This document shows positions 1 through 22,463 of a stretch of DNA of 64,000 nucleotides, piece by piece. A program made the translations under genes and the position numbers. The DNA comes from Planctomycetota bacterium. GTDB taxonomy: Bacteria > Planctomycetota > JAJSAM01 > JAJVHW01. The notes below the pieces were generated by a model. The model worked only from the letters and a program-made list of their open reading frames with translations, did not search any database and had not been told where the DNA came from. Where the stretch lies: assembly GCA_021414065.1 (NCBI GenBank), contig JAIOPE010000146.1:7807-71806 (forward strand). The letters run 5' to 3'. The stretch's first letter is position 1, and the number at the start of each line of letters is the position of its first letter.

Positions 1-2452
1 GCGGGCGGTCGGCGTGGAACGTGCCGTCCTTGTCCGCGTTGTCGGTCGCCCACTGCGCGATGATCGGTCCGACGATGTCCGACGGACCCGTCGGGTGGCA
101 CACGTTGCAGGAGTTCGTGGGGCCGACGAGCGTCTCGTTCCCGCCGCCGTCCTTCGTCGAGAGCGCGCGGCTCACACGCGGGTTCACGGTCTGGAACGTG
201 TGGACGTGTTCGTCGCCGCCGAGTGTGAACCCGGCCTTGTCGGTCACGTTGACGGCTGTCTTCTCCATCGTCGGCATGTGGCACGTCTCGCAGCGGCCGA
301 CGCCCGTCCCTGCGGGGTCGTAGAGCGCGAGCGACGACACCGGCATCCCGATGTCTTTCATGTGGTCGTTGACCGCCTGCTTCACGGAGTCGGGCGTGGT
401 ACCCGAACCGATTTGCGCGACGTCGGCCAGCGTCAGCGACCCGTAGGGCGCGAAGCCCGCGTGGCAGGAGAGGCAGAGACTGTTGTCGGCCGCGCCCGTC
501 TTCACCGCGACCTTGGCGCCGGTCGCGCCGCGCTGAACGGTCGCACGGATCATGTACTTGGAGTTGCGCACGTGCGGGTCGTGGCAGTCGAAGCAGGTCG
601 GCGAGAAGCCGGCGACCGGACCGTGGTTGCCCTGCGTCAGGTCGAGCGACTGCTGGCGGTGCGACCTCGATGCGATCCACGTGAAGTCGTCATGCTCGGA
701 CACCGACGGATTGGGGTCCGTGTAGAAGAGCTTCGCCGACTGACCCCAGTAGTCGGTGGACGTCTTGGTGATGTCGAAGAAGTTGCGGTGCGTGTCGCCG
801 AACTTGGCGACGCCGTTCGCGGCGGTCCATCCGAACCCGGCCTTCTGGAACGCCGTCTCGGCGACGCCCGGGTAGGCGTCCTTCGCCGTGCCGCGCGTGT
901 GGCAACGGCCGCACACCTCGTTCGCCTTCGCGACGCCGGCGGGCGTACCGTCGATGAACGCGCGCGGGTTCCGGATCTTCGTCTTGTCTCCGAGGCCTTC
1001 AACGTGCTCCTTGCCGGGCCCGTGACACTGCTCGCAGCCGATGTTGAAGTCAACGTGGCCGACCTGGAACTGGCCGCTCGCAGAGACGAGCATCTCGCCG
1101 GTGTTGTGACATCCGGAGCAGCGCGCGTTGAAGCCCTGCGATTGCGGGGGCATCGTGCCGCCGCTCCACTTCGGGGTCGTCGCCGGAGTGCCCGAGTACC
1201 AGTCGCCGGGGTCGTACGTCGCGTAGAGGCCCGTGGAGTCGTTGAACTGCACGGGGGACGGGTACAACTCGGTTCCGATCGCGACGAGGTAGCGCTGCTT
1301 CCACTGGCCGTTGCCGCCCATGACTCGCGCGACGTCGTACCGCACTGAACCGATCGTGATCTTGTACGGGAGGATGTCGCCGGCGACGTGGCTGAGCTTC
1401 GGGGCGTTCGCGCCGTAGGTGGCGAACGCGGGAACCGTCGCAAGGTCGAGTCCGTCACGGAAATCGTCGATGCCGTTCTTGTCCACGTCGTTGACGAACG
1501 CCTTGCCTGTGAGACCGGGGCGGTCCCACGTGCGGGCCGCGAGGTTGTGGAGCGAAGCCGCCCATCCGCGGAAGATCTCGTCGTGGCACCGGCCGCAGGG
1601 GTCGGACCCGACGTAGCCGGGCAGCGCCGCGAGCGCGGGACTGCCCTTGTCCACGATGAAGGGCGACGTTCCCGCGGATGCGGGCAGGGTGTGCGTGGAC
1701 TTCGGGAGCGCCGGGTTCTTGAACGCGAACTTCAGTTGCACGTCCCCGACCGCGCCGTCGTTGCGCCAGACGACCGTGTATCGGCCGTCGGCGGGCAGCG
1801 CGACGTCCTTCGCGGTGGACCCCTTCGCCGTCGTGGCTGCAGCGGTGTAGACCGCGGCGCCATCGGGGCCGAGGATCGACTCGATGACCGGGCGCGCACG
1901 ACTGCGTCCGCGCGGCATCACGGACACGCTGACCGTCGCTCCGCCGACTCCGTGGAATCGGAACTCGTTCGCGCCCTCGGGCGCCGAAGCGACGATCCCG
2001 ACGGCGGACGTCGCGACGCCACCGGACGTCTGGAGCACGTACCCGCCCGTTCCGGACGACGACGCCACCTCGATGGTGAAGTAACCGGAGAACGGCAGCT
2101 TGAACCTGGAGACCGAGGTTCTCGCGCCGCTCGTGCGCAACGCATGGCCGAGCGCGACGGCGTCGCCGCCGGGCCGCGTGAGGCGGAAGGTCGGATGGGC
2201 CCCGGATCCGGCGGCCGGCGCGAGTGAAGCGTTCAGCACCGAGCCCTTCGTCGCGAAGAACGTGTACTGGTGTACCTCCCCCGCCTTGGTGATCGCAGAC
2301 GTCACCCGGTCACCGATGTCCACGTCCCGCGCCCCGTAGAACGGCGCGTCGTCGGCCGCAGACGCGGACTGCGCGGCTCCGGCGACGAGGGCTCCCAAGA
2401 GTGCGAACGCGACCCGGGCGGCGGTGCGTGTCTGGCTCGGCTGGTTCAGCAT
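1..2452 (-). CDS. Secreted multiheme c-type cytochrome (at least 8 CxxCH) with N-terminal beta-sandwich (PPC-like) domains; 3' end beyond the window edge
   Basis: Not in the ORF track because its stop lies outside the window. Manual translation from ATG at 2452 (RBS GGAGGAG) gives a signal peptide (MLNQPSQTRTAARVAFALLGALVAGAAQSASA), about 250 aa of heme-free beta-rich sequence, then YVGSDPCGRCH, CSGCH, CEQCHGPG, CGRCH, CFDCH, CLSCH, CETCH, CNVCH. Confidence 0.88.
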   Translation of the reverse strand, partial: MLNQPSQTRTAARVAFALLGALVAGAAQSASAADDAPFYGARDVDIGDRVTSAITKAGEVHQYTFFATKGSVLNASLAPAAGSGAHPTFRLTRPGGDAVALGHALRTSGARTSVSRFKLPFSGYFTIEVASSSGTGGYVLQTSGGVATSAVGIVASAPEGANEFRFHGVGGATVSVSVMPRGRSRARPVIESILGPDGAAVYTAAATTAKGSTAKDVALPADGRYTVVWRNDGAVGDVQLKFAFKNPALPKSTHTLPASAGTSPFIVDKGSPALAALPGYVGSDPCGRCHDEIFRGWAASLHNLAARTWDRPGLTGKAFVNDVDKNGIDDFRDGLDLATVPAFATYGANAPKLSHVAGDILPYKITIGSVRYDVARVMGGNGQWKQRYLVAIGTELYPSPVQFNDSTGLYATYDPGDWYSGTPATTPKWSGGTMPPQSQGFNARCSGCHNTGEMLVSASGQFQVGHVDFNIGCEQCHGPGKEHVEGLGDKTKIRNPRAFIDGTPAGVAKANEVCGRCHTRGTAKDAYPGVAETAFQKAGFGWTAANGVAKFGDTHRNFFDITKTSTDYWGQSAKLFYTDPNPSVSEHDDFTWIASRSHRQQSLDLTQGNHGPVAGFSPTCFDCHDPHVRNSKYMIRATVQRGATGAKVAVKTGAADNSLCLSCHAGFAPYGSLTLADVAQIGSGTTPDSVKQAVNDHMKDIGMPVSSLALYDPAGTGVGRCETCHMPTMEKTAVNVTDKAGFTLGGDEHVHTFQTVNPRVSRALSTKDGGGNETLVGPTNSCNVCHPTGPSDIVGPIIAQWATDNADKDGTFHADRP

Positions 2453-2701
2453 GCTGTCTCCTCCAGATCGGGCGTCCTGGCGCCCAGGGTCAGTGCCGCG
2501 AGTATCCCCGCCCTGCGATCGGAGGCGCAAATCGAGACCGCCTGCCGGAAGGAAAGCGTCAAGTACGTGACTTCAGTGGCAGGCGCGGCCGTTGGCGGGC
2601 GCGCCGGGACGCCCGTCGGTGCCGGAATCGGACGGGACGCGCATCCAGGCGACGACAGCATGCCGCCAGAGCGCGTCCCGCGTACGAACCCGGTCCCGTC
2701 G

Positions 2702-3355
2702 CTACTTCTTCGGGTGGTCGTGGGTCTTCGACTTGGCCTCTTCGTACTTGAACTCGGCCTTCGTCGGGTTGTCGGCGTTGTGGCACGTCTCGCAGACCTT
2801 CGCCTCGGGCTTCGTCATGCCCATCGGGGCGAGCGTCTCGAGGGTGAACTTGGCGTCCTTGTTCTTCTCGAGCTCCGCTGTCTTGTGCTTCACGTAGAGG
2901 CTGCCCGGGCCGTGGCAGGACTCGCAGCCGACGCCGCCGAGCGCCGCGGCGCGCTTGCCGGCCGCTTCGTCGGCCTTCGGATCGGCGGGGTAGCCGGTCT
3001 CCGTGCCGTAGCCGGTCGTATGGCACTTCAGGCACGTCGCGTCGGACGTGTAGTCCTTCGCGGGGTCGAGTTTCGCGGCGGTCTTCTTGTCGAAGAGCGC
3101 CTTGTCGTCGGCCTCGGCCGTCGGAGCGAGCGACTTCATCGCCTTCGCCATCGACGTCTTCTTCCAGCTCTTGTGCTCCTGGAAGTGGCACTTCTGGCAG
3201 GCCTTGTCGCCGACGTACGTCGGCTTGTCCCCGGCGGAGGACGCGGCGTCCTCTGCGGGAGTCCGCGCTGCGGCGAACGTGACGAGCAGGGCGGCGACCG
3301 CGGTCAGTGCGAATGCACCCGTGAACGTGCCTGCGAACTCTCGGATCTGCTTCAC
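2702..3355 (-). CDS. Tetraheme cytochrome c, c554-like family
   Basis: Signal peptide; YVGDKACQKCH, CLKCHTTGYG, VGCESCHGPGS, CETCHN, the c554/c-prime-family motif pattern. Confidence 0.9.
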   Translation of the reverse strand: MKQIREFAGTFTGAFALTAVAALLVTFAAARTPAEDAASSAGDKPTYVGDKACQKCHFQEHKSWKKTSMAKAMKSLAPTAEADDKALFDKKTAAKLDPAKDYTSDATCLKCHTTGYGTETGYPADPKADEAAGKRAAALGGVGCESCHGPGSLYVKHKTAELEKNKDAKFTLETLAPMGMTKPEAKVCETCHNADNPTKAEFKYEEAKSKTHDHPKK

Positions 3356-3361
3356 TTGAGA

Positions 3362-3400
3362 ACTCCTTCCGTCCGGGCGAAGTGCCCGGACGGAAGGAGT
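3362..3400 (-). promoter_or_regulatory. Perfect 17-bp stem hairpin overlapping the RBS of the c554-like gene
   Basis: ACTCCTTCCGTCCGGGC (3362-3378), 5-nt loop, GCCCGGACGGAAGGAGT (3384-3400). On the minus-strand mRNA the 3' arm contains AAGGAG just upstream of the GTG at 3355. Confidence 0.7.
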
Positions 3401-3436
3401 GTTGCAACGCGAGTGCCGAGTCCGGTCAGAACAACG

Positions 3437-5032
3437 TCAGCGGTGGCACTCGTTGCAGTTCTGGTCGTTCACCGGGTGCTTCATCGTGTCGTGGCAGAGG
3501 AGGCACTCCCAGTCGGGGCGGTGCCCGGAGGGCTTCGCCGGCGCGAGGCGGTGCGAGGGCGTTGCGTCGTGGCACGCGGCGCAGGACTCGCCAGCCGACC
3601 CCGGCTCGATGTGACAGTTCAGGCAGTGCCGAGCGCGGGCGCCGCCCCACGACCCTGTGTGCGACCGCGGCGGGTTCGTGGTGTGGCACTCGACGCAGGC
3701 GTCCTGCTGGTGGCAGGCGGCGCAGCGCTGGCGATCCATCGACGCCGCGAGTCCGTGGCCCGGGCCGGCGCGCCACACGGTCGAGTGGTCGCGGGGCTTC
3801 TCCTCGCGGTGGCACTCGATGCACGTGTTCTCGGTGTGACACATCGAGCACGTCTCGGATCGGCCCTCGGGGGCCCCGCGGCGGACGATCTGACCGTGGC
3901 GAACGTCCCACAGCTTGTCGTGACTCGCGGGCTTCGTGGACGAGTGGCAATCGGAGCAGGACTTCTGCGTGTGGCACATCGCGCACGTCTCGCCGCTTCC
4001 GGTGAACTCGCCCGCCTTCACGATGCCGCCGTGCCGGGTCTGCCACGACGTGTCGTGATTCGCGGGACGCGTCTTCGCGTGGCAGGTGGTGCACGTCTGC
4101 TGCGTGTGGCACATGGCGCAGGACTCACCGCTGCCGGTGAACTTCCCGGCCTTCACGACGGCGCCGTGGCGCCCCTGCCACGCCTTGTCGTGGTTGATGG
4201 CCGGGGTCTTCGCGTGGCAGTCGGCGCAGGTCTGCTCGGTGTGGCACATCGCGCAGTTGTCGGCCGTGCGGGCGGACTTCCCGGCCACGGTCTTCCCGGT
4301 GCGGACGAGCGGACCGTGCAGGCCCTTCCACTTCGGGTCGTGGGTGGACGGTGCGGTCTTCTGGCCGATCGTCTTGTGGCACTGCGCGCAGTCCTTCGGA
4401 CCGTTCTGCTTCTCGTGGCACGAGACGCACCCGGCCATGGTCAGCGCGAGTTCGGGGCCGGTGCGAGTGCTCTCTTCGATGCCGGCGTGGCACTGGCCGC
4501 AGGCGACCTTCTTGTCGCCGTGGGGTTTGTGGCTGAAGTGGACGAACGCGGGCTGCTTCGTGAACTGGCTCCAGCGAGGGTTGCCGCTCGCCGGGTCGAG
4601 GAACGACTTCGCCGTCTTCTCAGGCGGCTTCTTCGCGTCGATCTCCTCGTGGCACTCGATGCACTGATCCATCGTGGGCATGCCCGCGTGTTCCTTCGTC
4701 TCCGCGCCCTCGTGGCAATCGGTGCACGTCGGCCCGCGGGCCACGTGCGCCTTGTGATCGAAGTCGGCCCAGGTGCGCGCGGGCTTCAGCATCACGGCTG
4801 CGACCGCGGCCGGCGCCACGACGACGCCCAGCTTCTGCGGCGCAGGCTTCATCGCTGCGACGTCGAGGACCGCCGGCGCCTTCACGCCTGCCGGCGCTGC
4901 GGCGGCGGGCGCCTTTGCGGATGCTGTGTCGCCCGACGGGAACAGGCGGCTGCAGCCCGACGTCGATACCACGGCGGCCACGGCGGCGAGCGCCGCGAGA
5001 CCGTTCAGCAGGACGATGTGGAGTTTGCGCAT
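3437..5032 (-). CDS. 19-heme c-type cytochrome lipoprotein (cytochrome c3/c7-like N-terminus plus tandem diheme repeats)
   Basis: Start MRKLHIV at 5032; lipobox-like VVSTSG-C; 19 CxxCH counted; 45-aa repeats CxMCHTxxxCxxCH...P..H...W...HG. Confidence 0.9.
   Translation of the reverse strand: MRKLHIVLLNGLAALAAVAAVVSTSGCSRLFPSGDTASAKAPAAAAPAGVKAPAVLDVAAMKPAPQKLGVVVAPAAVAAVMLKPARTWADFDHKAHVARGPTCTDCHEGAETKEHAGMPTMDQCIECHEEIDAKKPPEKTAKSFLDPASGNPRWSQFTKQPAFVHFSHKPHGDKKVACGQCHAGIEESTRTGPELALTMAGCVSCHEKQNGPKDCAQCHKTIGQKTAPSTHDPKWKGLHGPLVRTGKTVAGKSARTADNCAMCHTEQTCADCHAKTPAINHDKAWQGRHGAVVKAGKFTGSGESCAMCHTQQTCTTCHAKTRPANHDTSWQTRHGGIVKAGEFTGSGETCAMCHTQKSCSDCHSSTKPASHDKLWDVRHGQIVRRGAPEGRSETCSMCHTENTCIECHREEKPRDHSTVWRAGPGHGLAASMDRQRCAACHQQDACVECHTTNPPRSHTGSWGGARARHCLNCHIEPGSAGESCAACHDATPSHRLAPAKPSGHRPDWECLLCHDTMKHPVNDQNCNECHR
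3836..4255 (-). repeat. 135-bp (45-aa) intragenic tandem repeat encoding diheme units
   Basis: C(A/S)MCH codons recur at 3836, 3971, 4106 and 4241, an exact 135-bp period. Confidence 0.85.
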
Positions 5033-5036
5033 GGGT

Positions 5037-6566
5037 TCAGAACTCGACCGCGAGGCCCAGTGAGAGCACATGGTCGGTCTCCTTCTCGTCACGTTCCCAG
5101 GAGTAGCGGATGTCCATCGTGAGGTCCTCGGAGAGCTGGGCGTTCACGCGCACGTACGCCGTCCGCAGGTGCGTCCGCTCGCCGCTCTGCAAGCGTCCTT
5201 CGTCGTACAGCGTGTAGTCCGTTCCGACCGAGAGACGCGCCGACCCGCCGAAGCGGTGCGTCAGGTCGCACGTCCACGTGCGGATCGTATCGGAGTCGTT
5301 GCCCTTCCAGACTTCCCCGCCGACGGAGAGCGTCGAGCCCTTCCACGGCAGGTCGTCCACCGACGGCATCAGCCAGAACCGCGTGGTCTCGCGGTTGTAG
5401 GTGCCTTCGTCGTTCGCGTTCACGAGTCGCTTCGCAGCGGCCCCGGCTTCGACCGACCAGTTCCCGCCCATCGCCTCGCCGAGTCCCTTCACGGCCCGGA
5501 TGTCGGCCTGGTGGTAGCGGTAGAGGGTCTTCAGGATCGTCGTGTAGGGGTCGAACTCCGTCGCGAGGTGCTTCTGGTCGTCGAGAAGACGCTTGTAGCC
5601 GACCTGGACGAGCAGGTCCTGGTCGGGGAAGTTCCCGGTGGCGCGGACGAGCGCGTCGCGCGGCCCGTCGAGCCAGGTGAAGCGGCCGTGCAGGTCCACG
5701 TTCGGCGTGAGCGCGTGCCAGACGGACGCCGCCGCCAAGTCGTTGCGCTCGTTCGTGTAGCCCGCGAGGTCGTCCTCGACGTGAGCGTAGTCCAGAGCAG
5801 CGCGACCGCCCTTCCACGGGGCGGCCGTGGCGCGGAGACCGCCGAGCCAGTCGCCGGACGACTGCGCCTCGTAGAAGTGAACGGGCTTGCCCGCGTAGCC
5901 GAGGAGTCGGAGGTTCGTGCCGCGGTCGAGCTGGGACGACGTCGCGGAGACGCCGTCGAACTGGAACGTTTCGGCCGCGTACACGTACTGGCGGCCGATC
6001 TTCGCCGCCTCCACCGGGCCGCACCCGCGGCGCCACGTGACGTACCCGGTGTAGACCTGTGTCGTGAACTCGTTGCCGTACGTGTCGGCGAGCGACGACC
6101 AGCGCGAGCCCGTGCGACCGTCGGGGCGCGAACCGATGTCCCACGCGCTGCGCGCGCTGAACGTCGCGGAGAGCGGGTCCTTCTGTTCGTCGCCGACGCG
6201 CAGATCGAGGTGCGTGTAGAGGTCGAAGTCGTCCGATTCGCGCGCGGGCACGCCGTTCCCGGGAAGGAACCGCGCCTCCCACCGGAACGAGACGCGGCCG
6301 TGCACCGGCGCGCCGACGAGTCCTTCGACCGCGTTGCGCAGGGCGCTCCGCTCGACGCCGGGAGCCTCGGAACGAGGCGTCGGCTCGGACTCCCACGTCG
6401 CGGCCTTCAGCACGTCCTGCGGGGACCAGGTCGGCGTGCCCCCCGTCAACGGTTGCTCGTCGCCGGCCCGGGCCGGAGCCCCGGCGGCGACCATCCCGGC
6501 AAGGACCGCGAGCGCGAGCCCGGTTCGTCCTGCGCGGCTGACTCCATCACGACGACGACGGGTCAT
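5037..6566 (-). CDS. Outer-membrane beta-barrel porin (porin-cytochrome conduit type)
   Basis: Signal peptide ending ARA-G; alternating amphipathic strands; C-terminal ...LSLGLAVEF (BAM signal); RBS GGAGGAGG before ATG 6566; flanked by multiheme genes. Confidence 0.8.
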   Translation of the reverse strand: MTRRRRDGVSRAGRTGLALAVLAGMVAAGAPARAGDEQPLTGGTPTWSPQDVLKAATWESEPTPRSEAPGVERSALRNAVEGLVGAPVHGRVSFRWEARFLPGNGVPARESDDFDLYTHLDLRVGDEQKDPLSATFSARSAWDIGSRPDGRTGSRWSSLADTYGNEFTTQVYTGYVTWRRGCGPVEAAKIGRQYVYAAETFQFDGVSATSSQLDRGTNLRLLGYAGKPVHFYEAQSSGDWLGGLRATAAPWKGGRAALDYAHVEDDLAGYTNERNDLAAASVWHALTPNVDLHGRFTWLDGPRDALVRATGNFPDQDLLVQVGYKRLLDDQKHLATEFDPYTTILKTLYRYHQADIRAVKGLGEAMGGNWSVEAGAAAKRLVNANDEGTYNRETTRFWLMPSVDDLPWKGSTLSVGGEVWKGNDSDTIRTWTCDLTHRFGGSARLSVGTDYTLYDEGRLQSGERTHLRTAYVRVNAQLSEDLTMDIRYSWERDEKETDHVLSLGLAVEF

Positions 6567-6589
6567 TCCTGCCTCCTCCGCGGCGCGCC

Positions 6590-9415
6590 TCACGGCCGCC
6601 CCGACAGCAGTGCGTACGCGATCCCCACGACGAGCGCCAGCCCGACGGCCAGCGCGACGGCTCCGAGCACCTTGACGCCGCGCACCATGTGCGCCGGCGG
6701 CGAAGCAACCAAGTGAGCGTCGAGCGTTCCCGCAGCCTTCATCGCCTCAAGCTCCCGCGGACGCTCGAACTCCAGTTCGTCGATCGCAATGCTCCCTGTG
6801 AAGATCGAGACGTCCATGGGGAAGCGATCCGGCCGGAACTGCGTGTTGAAGAAGTGCGTCGTGAAGATGAACGCGACCGCGAGCAGGGCCTCGTCGCCGT
6901 GGACGATCGACGCCACGTTGAGCGCCCAGCCCGGCAGAATGCGCGTCGATGCCTGCGGGAACCAGAGCATCAGCCCCGACGACCCGATGATCACGATGCC
7001 CCAGAACACGGCGAAGTAGTCGAACTTCTCCCAGTACGTGAACCGGCCGTAGCGAGGCCGCGGACCGCGCCCGAGGAACCACTTCATCGTCTCGACGAAC
7101 TCCACGCCGTCGCGCGCGCTGAACATCATCGAGTCCGGTCCGAAGCAGAGTTGCTTCCACGACCAGCCCCACTCCTTCCGCATCTTCGTGAGATCCCAGA
7201 TGTGGAACGCGAAGAGGCCCAGCAGGAAGACCGCCGCCACGCGGTGCAGCACGCCCATGTGGCCGAACCCGCCGAAGAACGACGAGACCGCCTGAGCCCA
7301 GCCGGCCCAGCCGAACTTCAGCGCCATTCCTGTGAGTGCGAGCGTGAGGAAGCTCACGACCATCACGATGTGCATCGTGCTCTGCGTCGGCGAGAACCGA
7401 CGGTAGACCTTCGTGTGCGGGTCCTTCAGCGTCGCGAGCATCTTCGCGCGGTGCGGGCCCCACTCGCTGCGAGTGGACCAGAGACGCAGGAGCCAGAGCA
7501 CCGTGTGAACGGCCGCGATGGCCATCGTGCCGAGAAGCAGGCCGGTCATCGCGCGGTACGTCCAGTAGAGCCACGGTTCGTCGGAGTCGTTGTGGTCGCC
7601 GTGCGGCATGTACTTCGCGAATCCGGCGTGCGCCCCCTGGTGACACTGGCCGCACGTGGCAACCAGGTTGGCGGGGTTCGTTCGCGACGCAGCGTCCGAC
7701 GACAGGAGCACGTCGTGCGTGCCGTGGCAGTTGAAGCACTTCGCCGCGACTGCGCCGCCGAGTTGCGTCATCTTGCCGTGGAACGTCTCGAAGTACGTCT
7801 CCGACTGCTTTTCGTGGCATTCAGCGCACTGGCCGATCACGCGCATGCGGAAGTCGGCACCACCGGTGCGGCTGATCTTGTGCGCCGTGTGGCAGCTCTC
7901 GCAGGTCGGGAGCGTGCGACCGGGCTCCAGCTTCACGTTGCCGGGCCAGTGGACGCTCTTGCGCAGCTTCTCCTCGACGCCCGCGTGACAGGCTCCGCAG
8001 GTGGCGGCGAGCTTCGCCGGGTTCACGGACGACGTCGGGTCCGTCGGCGGCAACTCGCGGTGCGACGAGTGACAGCTCACGCACGTTGCGCTGACGATCA
8101 GTCCCGCCTTCGTGAGCCCCTCGCCGTGCACGCTGTCGGCGTACGAACCGACGATGTCGGCGACATCTCCCTTGATGCGGATGGCCGCCTTCTCACCTTC
8201 GCGGTGGCACTTGCCGCAGAGCGTCGGCACGTTGCGGGCATACGTCGGCGACGTCGGCTCCTTCTTGCTCTGCGTGGTGTGCTTCGCGTGGCAGTCGAGG
8301 CAGACGGGGGCGTCCTTGTCGTTCTTCGCGTGAAGCTGACCGTGCATGCTCTCGCTGTACGCCTTCGACTGGTCGGCGTGGCAGGCGGCGCAGTCCACCG
8401 GCTTCCCCGGCAGCGTCTCGCAGGCGCGGTTCCTCGACGGATCCACCTTTGAGTGGCACTGCGCGCAGCCGGTCTTCCCGTGCGTGGACTTCGAGTAGGC
8501 CTCGATGTCCACGTAGAGCGAGACCGACTTCCCGTCCTTCGTCATCACGAGGTCGGTCTTCTCGTGGCAGCCGGACTTCATGCAGTCCTTGTTCGCCGCG
8601 AGCGTGGGGTACTCCGGGCGTCGGGTCTTGTGCGGCTGGTGGCAGTCCACGCACACCGGGATCTTGTTCGGCTCGGCCTCCCACAGCTTGCCGTCGATCA
8701 CCTTGCGGTGGACGCGCTCGATCTGCGCGTGGCACTTGAGGCAGGTCTTGACCAGGTTCGCCGGGTTGATGCTCGACTTCGGGTCGGTGTGCGGGCGGAT
8801 CTCGTGGGATGTGTGGCAGGTCGTGCAGACCGCAGTGACGATCAGCCCCTTCTGGAACAGGCCTTCTCCGTGCATTCCGCCCGAGTAGTTCTCGAGGATC
8901 TTGTCCTGCGGAATGTCGTGCGTGCGGGAAACCGGTGATCCCTCGTGGTGGCACTGGCCGCAGAGGATCGGGATGTTCGTGATGTACGTCGCCGCGGTCG
9001 GGTCGGTGTGCCGCTTCACGTCGTGACCCGTGTGGCAGTCGTAGCAGTGCGGCGCCATCGGGTCGCCGGCGGCGAGTTTCACACCGTGGCGACTGGCTGC
9101 GTGCTGCTCCGCCTGCGGGTCGTGGCACTCGCCGCAGTTCACGGGCTCGAGCTTCGCCTTGTGCGGGAACTCGGAGCCGTCGAGGTCCTGGTGGCAGTGA
9201 ATGCACTGGACCTTGCCGCCGTGGACCGACGCGCCGAGCGACTTCATATCCACGAGCGGCGGCTTGCGCCCGCCTTCGATCGCGGGCTTCGCCTCGGGGT
9301 TGCCGTGGCAGCGGAGGCACTCGGCGTCCTCCTGCGCGAACGCGGGAGAGACGGCGGCCGCGACAAGCAACGCCGCGGCCGCGAGAACAGACGACAGAAC
9401 CCGTTGCACTCTCAC
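6590..9415 (-). CDS. CbcL-like inner-membrane protein: 18 CxxCH plus one CX4CH fused to an FdnI/HydC-type diheme cytochrome b
   Basis: GTG start 9415 with GGAGG RBS; signal peptide AFA-Q; 18 CxxCH plus CMKSGCH; C-terminal TM domain with four His (TMHIV, VLHRV, IVHGDEA, TTHFF) and YGRFTYWEKFDY. Confidence 0.88.
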   Translation of the reverse strand: MRVQRVLSSVLAAAALLVAAAVSPAFAQEDAECLRCHGNPEAKPAIEGGRKPPLVDMKSLGASVHGGKVQCIHCHQDLDGSEFPHKAKLEPVNCGECHDPQAEQHAASRHGVKLAAGDPMAPHCYDCHTGHDVKRHTDPTAATYITNIPILCGQCHHEGSPVSRTHDIPQDKILENYSGGMHGEGLFQKGLIVTAVCTTCHTSHEIRPHTDPKSSINPANLVKTCLKCHAQIERVHRKVIDGKLWEAEPNKIPVCVDCHQPHKTRRPEYPTLAANKDCMKSGCHEKTDLVMTKDGKSVSLYVDIEAYSKSTHGKTGCAQCHSKVDPSRNRACETLPGKPVDCAACHADQSKAYSESMHGQLHAKNDKDAPVCLDCHAKHTTQSKKEPTSPTYARNVPTLCGKCHREGEKAAIRIKGDVADIVGSYADSVHGEGLTKAGLIVSATCVSCHSSHRELPPTDPTSSVNPAKLAATCGACHAGVEEKLRKSVHWPGNVKLEPGRTLPTCESCHTAHKISRTGGADFRMRVIGQCAECHEKQSETYFETFHGKMTQLGGAVAAKCFNCHGTHDVLLSSDAASRTNPANLVATCGQCHQGAHAGFAKYMPHGDHNDSDEPWLYWTYRAMTGLLLGTMAIAAVHTVLWLLRLWSTRSEWGPHRAKMLATLKDPHTKVYRRFSPTQSTMHIVMVVSFLTLALTGMALKFGWAGWAQAVSSFFGGFGHMGVLHRVAAVFLLGLFAFHIWDLTKMRKEWGWSWKQLCFGPDSMMFSARDGVEFVETMKWFLGRGPRPRYGRFTYWEKFDYFAVFWGIVIIGSSGLMLWFPQASTRILPGWALNVASIVHGDEALLAVAFIFTTHFFNTQFRPDRFPMDVSIFTGSIAIDELEFERPRELEAMKAAGTLDAHLVASPPAHMVRGVKVLGAVALAVGLALVVGIAYALLSGRP

Positions 9416-9416
9416 G

Positions 9417-11432
9417 TCACACGCCTCCGGTGTCGTTCGGCCCGCCGTGCCCCGACTCGTGATGTTGCGAGGGGTCGGCGGCCTGCTGCGGCGGGACACG
9501 GTAGCCCGAGTCGCGGATGCGTTCGAACTCCTCGGGGTGCGCGTGCTTCATCTCGTCCTCCGTGAGCTTGCCCGTCATCCAGGTGACGCTCATCGGGTAC
9601 TCCGCGGGATGGAAGATCACGAAGAAGAAGTGCCACACGATGATCGCGCCGACTGCGAGGATCGCCTCGTAGTAGTGGATCCTCTCCGCGACGAAGACCA
9701 TCCATCGCGGCATCCACGCCGTCACCTCGACCTTGAACCAGAGCATCGAGCCGGTCACGAGCATGACCACGCCGCCCCACGCGAGCGCCCAGTACTCGAG
9801 CTTCATCGTGTAGTCCCACCGGTCGAACTTCGGCGGCGTCTTCGCCAGCCCCAGGTGGTAGAGCACGTTCTGCCGCGCGTCGCGGAGGTCCTGGAGCTTC
9901 GGGACGATCCGGCCGAATGCGTACCGGCCGTGCGGGCTCGCAATGATGTAGGCGACGTGGGCTACGGACGCGACCGCGAACACCACGCCCGCGAACCGGT
10001 GGACCCACCCGCGGGCCGTCTCGCCGAAGCCGACTGCTGCGAGACCGTGCACCCACGCGGCGTCGGGGAACGTCAGGGCGAAGCCCGTGATCGCGAGAAC
10101 GATGAACGAGAAGCCGACCGACGCGTGCACCCAGAGCTCGATCGGACGGAACCGCACGTAGGTCACCGAAGCCCGCTGCGCCCTCAGCTTCGCGCGGACG
10201 TGCTTGAACCAGATGAGCCCGTTGTGCAGCGCCATGCCGCCGAGCGTGAGCGGGATGACGAGCATGTAGAAGAGCTTCACCCAGTAGGCGTAGACGTCGG
10301 TGTCCGCCTCGGCCGTCGCGTGGACGCGTCCTTCGATGAAGCCCTGCGTGGCGCCCTCGTGGCAGTGCTGGCAGGTGGCGAGCAGGTTGTCCTTGTGGAT
10401 GCGGGACTTCGGGTCGGTCGAGGGGCGGACGTCGTGGAATCCGTGGCACGACGCGCAGTTCGCCGCCTTGGCGGAGCCGCCGGAGTCGGCGAGCCCGTGG
10501 TAGCTGTCCCGGTAGGACGACACGCGGTCGGCGTCGAGTCCGTACTTCCTCACGATCCGTTCGGCGGCGTGGCAGTTGGCGCAGGTCTGGGAGACGTGAC
10601 GACCGTAGACGGTCGAGTCGATCGACTCCTTCTTCTGGATGCTGTGCTCGCTGTGGCAGTCGTTGCAGGCGGGCGACTCCATCCTGCCGCGCGCGAGCGC
10701 CGTCGCGTGGATGCTCCCGGAGAACTCGCCGGCTGCCTTCTCGTGGCAGGTGGCGCAGAGCTTGGGGATGTTGGGCTTGAAGGTCTTCGACGTCGGGTCG
10801 CCGCCCGGGCGCAGGTCGTGGATCGGGTGGCAGTCCACGCAGCCCGCGGCCTTCTCGTTGTGCTTCTCGAGCACCTCCACGCCGTGGACGCTCAGCGCGT
10901 ACTGCGCGACCGTCTTCGCGATCCGGACTTCGCCGTCCTTCCGCGCGCCGCCGTGGCACTTCCCGCACGTCGAGGGCAGGTTGAACTTGTGGACCGACGA
11001 CTTCGGATCGGACTTCCTGAGCACCGCGTGCGGCGGGTGACAGGTCGAGCAGTTGGGCGCGTTCTTCGCCAAGTCCGGCGGCAGCTTCGCGTGCGGCGTC
11101 TTCTTGAACTTCTCGACGGAGTCCTCGTGGCAGTTCGCGCAGTTGACCGGGTCGGCCTTCTTCTTCGTGTGCGGAAGCTCCTCCATGTCCTCGTGGCACT
11201 GCACGCACGACTTCGCGTGAAGACTCGCCCCCCACTGCGCCGGGTCCACGCGCTTGCCCTCGGGGGCACCTTTCTTCGTGGCGCCCTCGGCGTGGCACGA
11301 CAGGCACGACGCAGGCTCGTCCTGATCGTCCTGCGCCCACGCGGTCGGGGCGGCTCCCGCCGCGGCGGCGAAGGCCGCGGCGGCGAGCGCCCACACGGCA
11401 AGTCCCTTCAGCACGGCAGCGAGGCGATTCAT
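9417..11432 (-). CDS. CbcL-like inner-membrane protein: 11 CxxCH fused to a diheme cytochrome b
   Basis: Start MNRLAAVLKG at 11432; signal peptide AWA-Q; 11 CxxCH; TM domain with WVHAS, WVHRF, RIHYYEA, VWHFF and RWDYTMKLEY. Confidence 0.88.
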   Translation of the reverse strand: MNRLAAVLKGLAVWALAAAAFAAAAGAAPTAWAQDDQDEPASCLSCHAEGATKKGAPEGKRVDPAQWGASLHAKSCVQCHEDMEELPHTKKKADPVNCANCHEDSVEKFKKTPHAKLPPDLAKNAPNCSTCHPPHAVLRKSDPKSSVHKFNLPSTCGKCHGGARKDGEVRIAKTVAQYALSVHGVEVLEKHNEKAAGCVDCHPIHDLRPGGDPTSKTFKPNIPKLCATCHEKAAGEFSGSIHATALARGRMESPACNDCHSEHSIQKKESIDSTVYGRHVSQTCANCHAAERIVRKYGLDADRVSSYRDSYHGLADSGGSAKAANCASCHGFHDVRPSTDPKSRIHKDNLLATCQHCHEGATQGFIEGRVHATAEADTDVYAYWVKLFYMLVIPLTLGGMALHNGLIWFKHVRAKLRAQRASVTYVRFRPIELWVHASVGFSFIVLAITGFALTFPDAAWVHGLAAVGFGETARGWVHRFAGVVFAVASVAHVAYIIASPHGRYAFGRIVPKLQDLRDARQNVLYHLGLAKTPPKFDRWDYTMKLEYWALAWGGVVMLVTGSMLWFKVEVTAWMPRWMVFVAERIHYYEAILAVGAIIVWHFFFVIFHPAEYPMSVTWMTGKLTEDEMKHAHPEEFERIRDSGYRVPPQQAADPSQHHESGHGGPNDTGGV

Positions 11433-11543
11433 GGGTTCAGGTCCTCTTGTCGCGGTTCCTGGTCTCCAACCGGGGCATCGAGACGCCCGGGTCGACGACC
11501 GGGGAGAGTCTCCGGAAGCGTGCGGCCGACCGACGCGACCTTG

Positions 11544-11556
11544 GTCACATTGTGAC
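11544..11556. promoter_or_regulatory. Candidate operator palindrome upstream of the cytochrome operon
   Basis: Perfect GTCACA-T-TGTGAC about 110 bp upstream of the first operon start. Confidence 0.35.
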
Positions 11557-11655
11557 GGACCATCTGCTTCGGCACCGCCGGAACTCACGTTTCGACGACT
11601 CGCGACTCCACCCGGCCGGGCGTCGATCCGCGCGCCGAACTCGACGCCGACGCCG

Positions 11656-11795
11656 TGTACCGTTCGCACCTCGTGGCTACCTCGTCGGGAAGGTCGCCAC
11701 AAGCGCCACGTCGCCTTCACCTCGGTCCGGCCCGGCCGCTCTGCTCCGCGAAAGCGCGTTTCGAACGGAATCGCTCGTCGATCCTTCGCCCCCCG
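11656..11795. repeat. Dispersed ~140-bp intergenic repeat, copy A
   Basis: Nearly colinear with 50909-51046; shared blocks TACCTCGTCGGGA, CCTCGGTCCGG.CCGG, AAGCGCG, GTC.ATCCT. Confidence 0.8.
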
Positions 11796-11815
11796 TGGTC
11801 TCCTCCGGTACCGCC

Positions 11816-12064
11816 ATGCCCCTCACTGTCACCATCCGCCGGGAGACGCAGGGCCGCGGAGGCAAGCAGGTGACCACGCTTTCCGGTCTCGCGCCGATCG
11901 GCGACGCCAAGATCGCGGCGCTGGCGTCCGACCTGAAGCGCCGCTGCGCCAGCGGCGGCAGTGCCGGCGCCGCCGGGACGATCGTCCTCCAGGGCGACCA
12001 CCGCGACCTCGTGCAGGCCGAACTCGAGGCCCGGGGCTACGTCGTCAAACGAGCCGGCGGCTGA
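11816..12064 (+). CDS. yciH: Translation initiation factor SUI1/YciH family
   Basis: RRETQGRGGKQVTTLSGL...LKRRCASGGS...IVLQGDHRD. Confidence 0.88.
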   Translation: MPLTVTIRRETQGRGGKQVTTLSGLAPIGDAKIAALASDLKRRCASGGSAGAAGTIVLQGDHRDLVQAELEARGYVVKRAGG

Positions 12065-12675
12065 TGCCGGACCCGCTCTGCAACCGGAAGAAGGTCCGCG
12101 GTTGGAAGCGCCGCATCCGCGACGTCGAGCGCTTCGAGCGGATCCAGGCGACACGCGACCTCGGCGACGACGTCGCCCGCCGCGGCTACGCGTTCACGAA
12201 GATCTACATCGACCCGTGGTTCCGACTCACCCCGCGCACGCCCCCGGTGTGGCTGCAGCAGCGGATCGTCGAGAGCCTGGTGCGCGTCCACGACGCGTGG
12301 CACGCCCGCCTCTCGGCCATGGGCTCGCCCGTCCGCACGCGGATCTGGCTCGCGTCGCCACGTTTCATGGGGTCGCAGGTCGTCGGCGGCGCCGGCGACC
12401 GCGCACACTACGTTGACGCGATCCTCCAGCCGGCGTCGCCCGTCGCCCCGTTCCCGGCGCATCTGTTCGCGCGCTGCCCGGAGGCGGTCGCCGGCTTCCG
12501 CTGGGAGTGCCGCAGCGACGACGACGAGGTCGAACTCGAGGACTGCGACGGCCCCGCCGAGGTGGAGCGCCTCCTCGCCCGCGGCTGGCAACGCCGCGAG
12601 AGCACCGACCCGCGCTGGGGCCCGAGCCTCGTCCGTCGCGTGGGCGACATCTGGGAGGGCGCGCGAGTCGATTGA
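12064..12675 (+). CDS. Conserved hypothetical protein (KKVRGWKRR N-terminus, possibly DUF3916-like)
   Basis: TGATG overlap with the yciH stop; protein-like composition. Confidence 0.6.
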   Translation: MPDPLCNRKKVRGWKRRIRDVERFERIQATRDLGDDVARRGYAFTKIYIDPWFRLTPRTPPVWLQQRIVESLVRVHDAWHARLSAMGSPVRTRIWLASPRFMGSQVVGGAGDRAHYVDAILQPASPVAPFPAHLFARCPEAVAGFRWECRSDDDEVELEDCDGPAEVERLLARGWQRRESTDPRWGPSLVRRVGDIWEGARVD

Positions 12676-22205: not shown

Positions 22206-22463
22206 CTGCCCGCTCTGCTGGCCGCCACGCGCGCGTCGCAACCGTCGTTGAACATCGGCACGTTCGACATCTCTCCCCACGTTCGACGGCGGCGAGGTGT
22301 CGGTCTATGACGTGGATCATCGAGAAGCGCCACACTGTCCGGTCGTGCGGCGATGCGAAGCGTCCCACGCAGTTGCACCAGCGTGACCGCAATCGCTCTC
22401 GCATGGAGTGTCCGCGGTGCCCGGGGTGCCCGAACTCCGCACGGCGACTCGGATCGGAGACGG

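What the first reader, a model, noticed from the sequence alone, without database searches (positions are those of the whole stretch)
1..11432. Self-contained quinol-to-surface electron conduit with at least 60 heme-c motifs
Seen: six co-oriented, mostly tightly spaced genes - CbcL-like (11 CxxCH + cyt b), CbcL-like (18 + 1 atypical + cyt b), a beta-barrel, a 19-heme lipoprotein, a tetraheme c554-like protein and a secreted cytochrome with at least 8 hemes. Known: Geobacter CbcL oxidises menaquinol, and MtrAB/OmbB-OmaB/PCC-type porin-cytochrome pairs span the outer membrane. Inference: inner-membrane, periplasmic, trans-outer-membrane and extracellular modules are encoded in one cluster, in an architecture that does not match MtrCAB (decahemes). 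This is a candidate new extracellular electron transfer system in an apparently planctomycete-like organism.
Basis: partly seen in the sequence, partly recalled or inferred. Interest (0 to 1): 0.88.

Follow-up and report, generated by a model that had tools for sequence, protein, structure and literature searches.

The report
Planctomycete porin-cytochrome electron conduit cluster
[quoted passage not shown] Its outer-membrane core belongs to a little-studied family already noted in anammox bacteria, so it is an elaborate variant, not a new kind of system.

Summary
All genes lie on the minus strand. They are two CbcL-like fusions of a multiheme domain with cytochrome b (11 and 18+1 heme sites), a predicted 22-strand beta-barrel with no Pfam or NCBIfam family, a 19-heme lipoprotein and a c554-like tetraheme. 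The last secreted cytochrome runs off the window and has 13 hemes in full. Two paralogous ~1030-aa decahemes follow on the contig. That makes 8 genes and 86 heme sites.

In all 30 relatives' loci examined, the barrel is directly followed on the same strand by a homologue of the lipoprotein cytochrome. The barrel family was found in 85 of 401 Planctomycetota genomes. These include Brocadiaceae-like genomes whose 338-aa, 14-heme partner fits the two-gene Pcc published for Ca. Kuenenia (2014). CbcL-type proteins with 3–23 hemes were already reported in Planctomycetes.

The outer-membrane module is therefore not a new system. New here are a six-heme tandem-repeat insertion (13 to 19 hemes) and the clustering of quinol, periplasmic, outer-membrane and OcwA-like surface modules. 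It is not MtrCAB. Function and electron direction are untested, and the complex prediction gave no verdict.

The parts
9417..11432 (-). Gene A. CbcL-like fusion of a Sec signal peptide, an 11-heme c domain and a C-terminal membrane cytochrome b domain with about 5 hydrophobic helices.
   Evidence: 11 CxxCH. PF01292 Ni_hydr_CYTB scores 50.3 bits against a cut-off of 30.1, and TIGR01583 formate-DH gamma gives 1.7e-11. Five invariant His in the membrane domain across 11 homologues (A4).
6590..9415 (-). Gene B. Second CbcL-like fusion with 18 CxxCH plus one CX4CH (CMKSGCH), giving 19 heme sites arranged as two similar nonaheme-like halves. It also has a cytochrome b domain and an extra C-terminal helix. 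The start is taken at the GTG 1-2 nt after the stop of A.
   Evidence: Motif spacing repeats. The CX4CH aligns with a canonical CxxCH in 4 homologues. PF01292 scores 28.3 bits, just under the 30.1 cut-off. B is about 30% identical to A-type proteins through the membrane domain.
5037..6566 (-). Gene C. Outer-membrane beta-barrel of 509 aa with a predicted signal peptide, a disordered ~70-aa N-terminus, a 22-strand barrel and a C-terminal Phe. An alternative GTG start lies at 6593.
   Evidence: AlphaFold2 pLDDT 74.3 and pTM 0.69, with 22 strands. Foldseek finds only generic large barrels such as FimD/PapC and AlgE, with TM 0.3-0.45. No Pfam or NCBIfam hit. The profile has no PDB sequence relative. 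The family has 902 representatives at E<=1e-3.
3437..5032 (-). Gene D. 19-heme lipoprotein cytochrome. It is a conserved 13-heme core with three tandem ~45-aa diheme repeats (6 extra hemes) inserted after heme 5.
   Evidence: 19 CxxCH. A Cys after a signal-peptide-like hydrophobic stretch is conserved in all 27 aligned proteins. 13 heme motifs are invariant and the insertion is visible in A3. The N-terminal part resembles ActA/QrcA (6lod 4.4e-17, NF041781 5.1e-18). The family profile also hits GSU1996-type c7 arrays (3ov0 8.3e-25).
2702..3355 (-). Gene E. Small c554-like tetraheme cytochrome with an N-terminal signal peptide or anchor. Presumed periplasmic carrier.
   Evidence: 4 CxxCH. PF13435 at 2.4e-17. 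NF043010 at 3.8e-27, below its cut-off. An E-like gene lies within the fetched stretch in 15 of 30 relatives' loci.
1..2452 (-). Gene F, N-terminal 817 codons. The gene continues beyond the window start to L001:6968. The full protein has a signal peptide, an unassigned ~290-aa N-terminal domain and 13 hemes. Its C-terminal pentaheme and helical region is OcwA/NrfA-like.
   Evidence: 13 CxxCH in the full ORF. Residues 836-1084 match PDB 6i5b_A at 7.6e-16. 6I5B is OcwA, the Thermincola cell-surface terminal reductase (PMC6703420, passages). PF22113 MtrC/MtrF domain II/IV at 2.2e-17.
11433..12063 (.). Roughly 630-nt non-coding stretch between gene A and a divergent plus-strand gene (12064-12672, no family). 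Presumed promoter and regulatory region of the cluster.
   Evidence: The codon-position GC signal is absent in 11433-12040 and strong on the plus strand from about 12050. No sigma-70-like site was found. The function is inferred only.

Best explanation
The cluster encodes a trans-envelope multiheme electron conduit of the porin-cytochrome type.

Inferred path:
1. Two inner-membrane CbcL-type proteins (A and B) exchange electrons with the quinol pool through a di-heme-b membrane domain.
2. They pass electrons along their periplasmic 11- and 19-heme chains.
3. The c554-like tetraheme E may act as a carrier.
4. The 19-heme lipoprotein D is held in or at the 22-strand outer-membrane barrel C and carries electrons across the outer membrane.
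5. The secreted cytochromes F (13 hemes, OcwA-like) and G/H (decahemes) act as surface or extracellular terminal reductases. Likely partners are insoluble or macromolecular acceptors such as Fe(III)/Mn(IV) oxides or humic matter.

Shown: gene content, heme-site counts, the barrel fold prediction, the conserved C-D pairing and the homology to the anammox Pcc pair.
Inferred: cellular locations, that D threads C, the order of carriers, the electron direction and the acceptor.
For: 1. Density of heme sites: 60 CxxCH in 11.4 kb against 3 in the other 52.6 kb, and 86 sites over 8 co-oriented genes.

2. C is a predicted 22-strand barrel. In 30 of 30 loci from 30 other Planctomycetota genomes a D homologue follows it directly on the same strand. 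These D homologues share 13 invariant heme motifs and a conserved lipoprotein-type Cys. The loci were not a random sample: 10 were all the non-self hits, and I picked the other 20.

3. The same pair occurs in low-GC genomes whose cytochrome is 88% identical to a Ca. Kuenenia protein. Its 338 aa and 14 CxxCH fit the published Kuenenia Pcc cytochrome (PMC4245776). A Brocadia orthologue is reported as expressed during electrode-dependent anammox (bioRxiv 10.1101/855817, supplementary-text passage in the preprint).

4. A and B have the defining CbcL architecture of an N-terminal multiheme c domain with a C-terminal HydC/FdnI-type cytochrome b.

5. CbcL-like genes with the b domain lie beside the pair in 5 of 6 same-family genomes and 4 of 24 others.

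6. The C-terminus of F matches the surface terminal reductase OcwA. F, G and H all carry signal peptides and share an N-terminal domain.
Against: - There is no experimental or expression evidence for this organism. No RNA run holds the stretch.
- Nothing here shows that D sits inside C.
- D homologues are lipoproteins, so they could face the periplasm only.
- The anammox relatives have only the two-gene pair, and their function is itself a prediction.
- The module set and order are not conserved. F is found in 3 of 30 loci, G/H in 2 of 30, and CbcL-like genes in 9 of 30.
- OcwA-type and NrfA-type cytochromes also reduce soluble nitrite and hydroxylamine, so a soluble substrate is not excluded.
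- B's cytochrome b match is just under Pfam's cut-off.
- Localisation calls rest on reading N-termini by eye.
Confidence: 0.68

Rival explanations
1. The hardware is the same but electrons flow inward. The conduit takes electrons from extracellular Fe(II), Mn(II), reduced humics or a partner cell, and the CbcL-like proteins reduce quinone, as proposed for MtoC in Fe(II) oxidisers.
For: The CbcL/MtoC/MtrH family occurs in both Fe(III) reducers and Fe(II) oxidisers and is thought to work in both directions (PMC6295460 abstract). Porin-cytochrome pairs without an outer cytochrome are typical of Mtr-type oxidiser clusters (PMC4245776 passage). Nothing in the sequence fixes the direction.
Against: Three large secreted cytochromes, one of them OcwA-like, resemble the terminal reductases of reducers. 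A freshwater survey rarely found oxidative EET markers in Phycisphaerae, in three out of 139 OTUs (bioRxiv 10.1101/2022.03.26.485925 passage). That evidence is indirect and comes from another class.
Confidence: 0.2
2. This is not a trans-outer-membrane wire. It is a periplasmic or surface redox enzyme system for a soluble substrate such as a nitrogen oxide, hydroxylamine, a sulfur compound or a metalloid. F, G and H would be catalytic multiheme enzymes and the barrel a substrate or export channel.
For: The C-terminus of F is homologous to OcwA of the NrfA family, which reduces nitrite and turns over hydroxylamine. Pfam gives a weak Cytochrom_C552 hit for F at 6.8e-4. D homologues carry a lipoprotein Cys and could be periplasm-facing.
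Against: No CxxCK or other atypical catalytic motif occurs in F, G or H. The strict barrel-to-cytochrome adjacency in 30 of 30 loci is what porin-cytochrome conduits show. The 13-19 bis-His-type sites in D are typical of wires, and its best PDB relatives are the electron-transfer proteins ActA and GSU1996.
Confidence: 0.1
3. The cluster is a chance juxtaposition or a mis-assembly of unrelated cytochrome genes in a metagenome-assembled genome.
For: The genome is a fragmented MAG with 184 contigs and 88% completeness. It holds 34 ORFs with 3 or more CxxCH, so cytochrome genes are common in it.
Against: The same genes recur side by side in independent assemblies of six related genomes. GC and GC3 are uniform along the cluster. 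A-B-C-D are nearly contiguous.
Confidence: 0.02

Closest known systems
Two-gene porin-cytochrome (Pcc) cluster of Ca. Kuenenia stuttgartiensis and other anammox bacteria (kuste4024/4025; Shi et al. 2014, PMC4245776; Shaw et al. 2020)
   Same: A barrel gene is directly followed by one long multiheme cytochrome gene. Homology was shown here. The barrel profile hits the low-GC genomes at 1e-64 to 1e-75 (one further genome of that family gave only a partial match at 2.6e-23), and tblastn gives 23-24% identity. All 13 core heme motifs of D align with the 13/14-heme anammox proteins.
   Different: D has 19 hemes because of a three-repeat insertion. The anammox loci examined (4 of 4) have no CbcL-like, E, F or G/H genes nearby. 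The paper calls the cytochrome periplasmic, whereas all homologues here carry a lipoprotein-type Cys. The anammox pair is itself uncharacterised biochemically.
Geobacter sulfurreducens Pcc (OmbB-OmaB-OmcB) and Ext clusters
   Same: The logic is the same: an outer-membrane barrel smaller than MtrB plus multiheme cytochromes, one of them a lipoprotein. CbcL acts as the inner-membrane partner.
   Different: Geobacter uses two cytochromes per barrel, an 8-heme periplasmic one and a 12-heme lipoprotein (PMC4245776 abstract). Here there is one 13-19-heme lipoprotein. Sequence relationship was not tested because no reference sequences were at hand. Shi et al. report the Kuenenia pair as only distantly related to the other Pcc groups.
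Shewanella MtrCAB
   Same: A cytochrome-in-barrel concept with extracellular decahemes at the surface. G/H and the decahemes next to the pair in other planctomycetes each have 5+5 hemes.
   Different: The barrel has no MtrB_PioB (PF11854) match and the family is not found in the genome. It has 22 predicted strands. D is not of the MtrA/DmsE family: TIGR03508 does not hit D, and the A3 profile hits the MtrA chain 6r2q_A only at 0.0026 (that this chain is MtrA is recalled, and the table labels it otherwise). G/H have no PDB match by sequence or by fold.
CbcL (G. sulfurreducens) / MtoC / MtrH family of quinol:cytochrome c oxidoreductases
   Same: An N-terminal multiheme c domain is fused to a HydC/FdnI-like di-heme cytochrome b membrane domain. 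The family is already reported from Planctomycetes with 3-23 hemes.
   Different: 11 and 19 heme sites against 9 in CbcL. Two paralogues sit in tandem directly upstream of the outer-membrane module. Direct alignment to CbcL itself was not done.
OcwA, cell-surface terminal reductase of Thermincola potens (PDB 6I5B)
   Same: Residues 836-1084 of F align with OcwA 281-492, the NrfA-like pentaheme and helical part, at 7.6e-16.
   Different: F has 13 hemes in 1098 aa, with an extra ~290-aa N-terminal domain and eight further hemes. The organism is diderm. No open-coordination heme could be assessed.
ActA/QrcA pentaheme subunits and the GSU1996 c7-domain 'nanowire' cytochrome
   Same: The first ~6 hemes of the D family match ActA (6lod 9.1e-26) and GSU1996 (3ov0 8.3e-25).
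   Different: Those proteins are periplasmic or inner-membrane-complex proteins with no barrel partner. The C-terminal seven hemes of D have no close solved relative.

Membership tests
Planctomycete (Kuenenia-type) two-gene Pcc | A gene for a porin-like outer-membrane beta-barrel lies directly beside a gene for a long multiheme c-type cytochrome. | tested here: met
   C (22-strand model) is followed 4 nt later by D (19 CxxCH). The same arrangement is seen in 30 of 30 relatives' loci.
Planctomycete (Kuenenia-type) two-gene Pcc | Sequence homology of both partners to the anammox pair. | tested here: met
   The barrel profile hits low-GC genomes at 1e-64 to 1e-75 (one further genome of that family gave only a partial match at 2.6e-23). 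D aligns with 13 invariant heme motifs. The partner in locus L027 has 338 aa and 14 CxxCH and is 88% identical to a Ca. Kuenenia sp. protein. Identity with the locus tags kuste4024/4025 themselves was not checked, because no reference sequence was available.
Planctomycete (Kuenenia-type) two-gene Pcc | The cytochrome and barrel form a complex that passes electrons across the outer membrane. | not testable with these tools
   This needs biochemistry or a structure. It has not been shown for any member of this family in the papers read.
MtrCAB / MtoAB / PioAB | Barrel of the MtrB_PioB family (PF11854). | tested here: not met
   The barrel has no Pfam hit at E<=0.01. PF11854 has no match in the 88%-complete genome.
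MtrCAB / MtoAB / PioAB | Periplasmic decaheme of the MtrA/DmsE family (TIGR03508). | tested here: not met
   D has no TIGR03508 hit. B reaches 69.3 bits against a cut-off of 192.2. The D-family profile hits chain 6r2q_A only at E 0.0026.
CbcL / MtoC / MtrH quinol oxidoreductases | N-terminal multiheme c domain fused to a C-terminal HydC/FdnI-like cytochrome b with transmembrane helices. | tested here: met
   A scores 50.3 bits on PF01292, above the 30.1 cut-off. B scores 28.3 bits, just below it, but is homologous to A throughout. Five invariant His in the membrane domain, enough for two bis-His b hemes.
CbcL / MtoC / MtrH quinol oxidoreductases | Direct sequence homology to G. sulfurreducens CbcL, and quinol oxidase activity. 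| not tested
Activity needs experiment.
Geobacter Pcc (OmbB-OmaB-OmcB) / Ext | Barrel plus a separate periplasmic octaheme and an outer-membrane lipoprotein cytochrome. | tested here: not met
   Only one cytochrome gene (D) is coupled to the barrel here and in 30 of 30 relatives. Homology of the barrel to OmbB/ExtB was not tested.
OcwA / NrfA-family multiheme cytochromes (for F) | NrfA-like pentaheme core with a C-terminal helical bundle. | tested here: inconclusive
   The sequence match to 6i5b_A covers only F 836-1084 at 7.6e-16. No structure of F was predicted and no catalytic heme was identified.

The most novel reading that the evidence does not exclude
The planctomycete 'barrel plus 13-heme lipoprotein' may be a third, structurally distinct class of trans-outer-membrane conduit, used by about a fifth of the phylum. 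Its length would be tuned by inserting diheme repeats, giving 13, 15, 17 or 19 hemes. In this organism the 19-heme outer-membrane wire and the inner-membrane-anchored 19-heme CbcL-like wire would together form a hard-wired, shuttle-free heme path. That path would run on the order of 30-40 nm from the quinol pool across a wide planctomycete periplasm to OcwA-like and decaheme surface reductases. The length assumes roughly 1 nm per heme, scaled from the 104 Å quoted for 10-heme MtrA.
Probability: 0.2. Interest if true: 0.75.

Novelty: new variant of a known kind. Interest (0 to 1): 0.5.

Why it matters
Non-anammox Planctomycetota are abundant in freshwater, soils and sediments, and their respiratory options are poorly known. 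This locus gives a concrete and nearly complete parts list for extracellular electron transfer in such an organism.

It also shows that the two-gene Pcc noted once in Kuenenia is the core of a widespread family with a conserved lipoprotein anchor. The family was found in 85 of 401 sampled Planctomycetota genomes and has 902 representative clusters.

The repeat-driven growth of the cytochrome from 13 to 19 hemes is a natural experiment on how wire length is set. The barrel and cytochrome pair, together with the G/H decaheme family (more than 3,400 relatives and no solved or Foldseek-detectable structure), are good targets for structural work.

All of this remains prediction. The value is as a defined, testable system and not as a demonstrated new mechanism.

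Tried and rejected
- Complex prediction of barrel residues 73-509 with mature D (collected): no verdict. Scores were 0.19, 0.49 and 0.16 against a mark of 0.32. It counts neither for nor against binding.
- Foldseek of the barrel model against PDB: only generic large barrels such as FimD/PapC, AlgE and porins. No specific relative was found and MtrB was not among the rows shown.
- Barrel profile against PDB sequences: nothing meaningful. The best hit was 0.083 to a protein that is not a barrel.
- Foldseek of the H core model (pLDDT 80.8) against PDB: no match with E<=0.001. phmmer of H against PDB: none. My guess from heme spacing that the G/H halves are NrfA-like is therefore unsupported and I dropped it.
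- Protein atlas. For the barrel the nearest clusters are unnamed Planctomycetota, an 'alginate export domain' cluster commonest in Deferribacterota, and a Nitrospirota cluster. This is a lead only that similar barrels exist outside the phylum. For H there was no usable hit.
- Promoter and terminator scan of L001 1-20000: 0 promoter-like sites. There were 14 terminator-like sites against 10.4±3.9 in shuffles, and all were on the plus strand. Uninformative.
- Sequencing runs: no RNA holder listed. Only one run holds half or more of the stretch, and it may be the source.
- Pfam on the shared N-terminal domains of F and H and on the divergent gene 12064-12672: no family.
- FeGenie HMMs, SignalP/PSORTb and a survey outside Planctomycetota could not be run. 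Supplementary tables of the papers, for example the locus lists in PMC4245776, PMC6295460 and the boreal-lake preprint, were closed and might already list relatives of these genes.
- Claims that something is not in print rest on searches only.


Full report
**What is there**

The window is G000:C139:7807-71806 of a 5.5-Mb metagenome-assembled genome with 184 contigs, 88% complete. It is about 69% GC, so I called genes by codon-position GC and not by open frames.

The minus strand of 1-11432 holds 60 CxxCH motifs. All six frames of the remaining ~52.6 kb hold 3.
- A, 9420-11432: 11 CxxCH.
- B, 6593-9415: 18 CxxCH plus CMKSGCH.
- C, 5040-6566: no heme motif.
- D, 3440-5032: 19 CxxCH.
- E, 2705-3355: 4 CxxCH.
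- F, from 2452 off the window edge.

B's CX4CH sits where four homologues have a canonical CxxCH.

A-B, B-C and C-D are separated by 0-25 nt or overlap. D-E is separated by about 80 nt and E-F by about 250 nt.

**Beyond the window**

On the contig F is 1098 aa with 13 CxxCH. It is followed by two more minus-strand genes, G and H, of about 1030 aa and 10 CxxCH each. They are 71-72% identical over the cytochrome core, and even their upstream leaders are duplicated. H ends about 170 bp from the contig end.

The cluster is therefore at least 8 genes with 85 canonical plus 1 variant heme sites. The genome as a whole has 34 ORFs with 3 or more CxxCH.

**The inner-membrane modules**

A and B each combine a signal peptide, a multiheme c domain and a C-terminal hydrophobic domain. 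That domain matches PF01292, prokaryotic cytochrome b561 of the HydC/FdnI type. A scores 50.3 bits, above the 30.1 cut-off. B scores 28.3, just below. Both also match formate dehydrogenase gamma.

An alignment of 11 A/B-type membrane domains has five invariant histidines. Two of them lie 15 residues apart in one helix, which is enough to ligate two b hemes.

This is the architecture described for CbcL: nine hemes plus a HydC/FdnI-like b domain and six predicted helices (PMC6295460 passage). The same paper reports CbcL/MtoC/MtrH homologues in 15 phyla, including two in Planctomycetes, with 3-23 heme motifs. These proteins are therefore members of a known kind. I could not align them to CbcL itself.

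**The outer-membrane module**

C has no Pfam or NCBIfam family. With an 11-sequence alignment, AlphaFold2 gives pLDDT 74.3 and pTM 0.69. The model has 22 strands between residues 88 and 508, a disordered ~70-residue N-terminus and a C-terminal Phe. Foldseek finds only generic large barrels, and the family profile has no PDB relative. It is not MtrB/PioB.

D starts with a signal peptide ending in TSGC. It has 19 CxxCH and no other Cys-rich motif.

**Conservation**

The barrel was found in 6 of the 7 other genomes of the same family. It was found in none of the 9 genomes from the two other families of the order, and in 4 further families among 40 relatives. With a profile it was found in 85 of 401 Planctomycetota genomes, G000 included (58 of 243 high-quality ones), across many families. 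It has 902 representatives at E<=1e-3 in a 1.84-billion-protein library. All named relatives are 'hypothetical protein'.

I fetched 30 loci from 30 other genomes. Ten were all the non-self hits. I chose the other 20 for long contigs and a spread of families, so they are not a random sample.

In 30 of 30 loci a D homologue lies directly downstream of the barrel on the same strand. Of the 30, 27 sequences were aligned, including D itself. I left out the D homologues of L016, L020, L029 and L038. The aligned set shares 13 invariant CxxCH motifs and an invariant Cys after the signal-peptide-like stretch.

Most homologues have 13 CxxCH, and two of the four low-GC ones have 14. The window's D has the 13-heme core plus three tandem ~45-residue diheme repeats inserted after heme 5. 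Among the 30 loci only L043 (17 hemes) and L045 (15 hemes) also carry extra repeats, partly at another site. Wire length evidently changes by repeat gain.

**Link to the literature**

Four loci come from low-GC (36-46%) genomes. The cytochrome of L027 has 338 aa and 14 CxxCH. Its closest named relative is a Ca. Kuenenia sp. protein at 88% identity, and other relatives are named Jettenia and Brocadiaceae.

Shi et al. 2014 describe a two-gene pcc cluster in Ca. Kuenenia stuttgartiensis: a porin-like protein plus a 14-heme cytochrome of 338-344 aa. They suggest that such long cytochromes could span the outer membrane without an outer cytochrome (PMC4245776 passages).

The Shaw et al. preprint names the pair kuste4024/4025. 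It states that a Brocadia orthologue was expressed during electrode-dependent anammox (10.1101/855817 passages; the supporting tables are supplements I could not open).

A boreal-lake preprint notes 'novel clusters' of putative EET cytochromes in non-anammox Planctomycetota, sometimes with CbcL (10.1101/2022.03.26.485925 passage). A subsea-tunnel study reports FeGenie PCC hits in planctomycete MAGs (PMC10732223 passages).

The C-D pair is therefore a member of a known but uncharacterised family.

**The other modules**

E is a c554-like tetraheme. An E-like gene is near the pair in 15 of 30 loci.

Residues 836-1084 of F match PDB 6i5b_A at 7.6e-16. 6I5B is OcwA, the NrfA-related cell-surface terminal reductase of Thermincola potens (PMC6703420 passages).

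The N-terminal part of D resembles ActA/QrcA and c7 arrays. It does not resemble MtrA.

The G/H core belongs to a very large unnamed family, with more than 3,438 proteins at E<=0.001 among 8,000 scored candidates. Members come from Planctomycetes, Myxococcales, Chloroflexota orders, Binatia and Abyssobacteria. It has no PDB match by sequence. A pLDDT-81 model has no match by Foldseek either.

F, G and H share an unassigned ~250-290-aa N-terminal domain.

**Synteny beyond the pair**

CbcL-like genes with the b domain lie within the fetched stretch in 9 of 30 loci: 5 of 6 same-family genomes and 4 of 24 others. F homologues occur in 3 of 30 loci and G/H homologues in 2 of 30, all in the same family.

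Only G004 keeps the order A-B-C-D. The other family members place the CbcL-like genes downstream.

Outside the family the pair is usually followed by a different ~1000-1290-aa decaheme with a 5+5 motif pattern. I counted 14 clear cases and 2 variants among 24 loci. This is an Mtr-like three-part logic built from unrelated proteins.

**Mechanism and rivals**

The best reading is a porin-cytochrome conduit linking the quinol pool to the cell surface (confidence about 0.68). The electron direction is open, and inward flow has about 0.2. A soluble-substrate enzyme system is less likely (about 0.1), and an assembly artefact is very unlikely.

Nothing here shows that D sits in C. Expression could not be assessed, because no RNA holder was found.

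**Verdict**

The novelty is that of a new variant of a known kind.

Noticed in passing
L001:174-3281 and L001:3666-6761 (contig C139, just outside the window start): Two tandem paralogous decahemes, G and H, are about 71-72% identical over the cytochrome core. Their ~765-aa core belongs to a family with more than 3,438 relatives in several phyla, all unnamed. It has no PDB match by sequence and none by Foldseek on a pLDDT-81 model. This is a widespread, structurally uncharacterised decaheme family.
   Followed up: partly
Loci L018, L019, L021, L031-L033, L035-L042 (for example L033:4717-7884): In most planctomycete families outside the window's own, the barrel and 13-heme pair is followed by a different ~1000-1290-aa decaheme. 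Its conserved motif spacing is [20,117,31,29,~360,20,~80,34,25]. This suggests a three-gene unit analogous to MtrCAB but built from unrelated proteins.
   Followed up: partly
L043:10372-11679 and L045:7545-8732: Other lineages independently extended the 13-heme cytochrome to 17 and 15 hemes with similar diheme repeats, partly at a second insertion point. Heme number in this family is evolutionarily labile.
   Followed up: partly
window 12064-12672 (+) and 11433-12063: A divergent plus-strand gene of 203 aa with strong GC3 but no Pfam family lies about 630 nt upstream of gene A. It could be a regulator or accessory protein of the cluster.
   Followed up: partly
window 18219-22304 (-): A 1362-aa ORF with strong coding signal (GC3 0.90) has no Pfam family at E<=0.001.
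   Followed up: no
G000 contigs C33 (about 97.9-118.0 kb) and C1 (about 1.6-12.6 kb): There are further multiheme clusters in the same genome. C33 has ORFs with 18, 15 and 9 CxxCH, and C1 has ORFs with 16, 9, 9 and 4. The organism may have more than one such pathway. Only one barrel of this family was found in the genome.
   Followed up: no
window 24188 and 24842 (-): Two isolated CxxCH motifs share one minus-strand frame and lie far from the cluster. They may belong to a diheme protein. Not examined.
   Followed up: no
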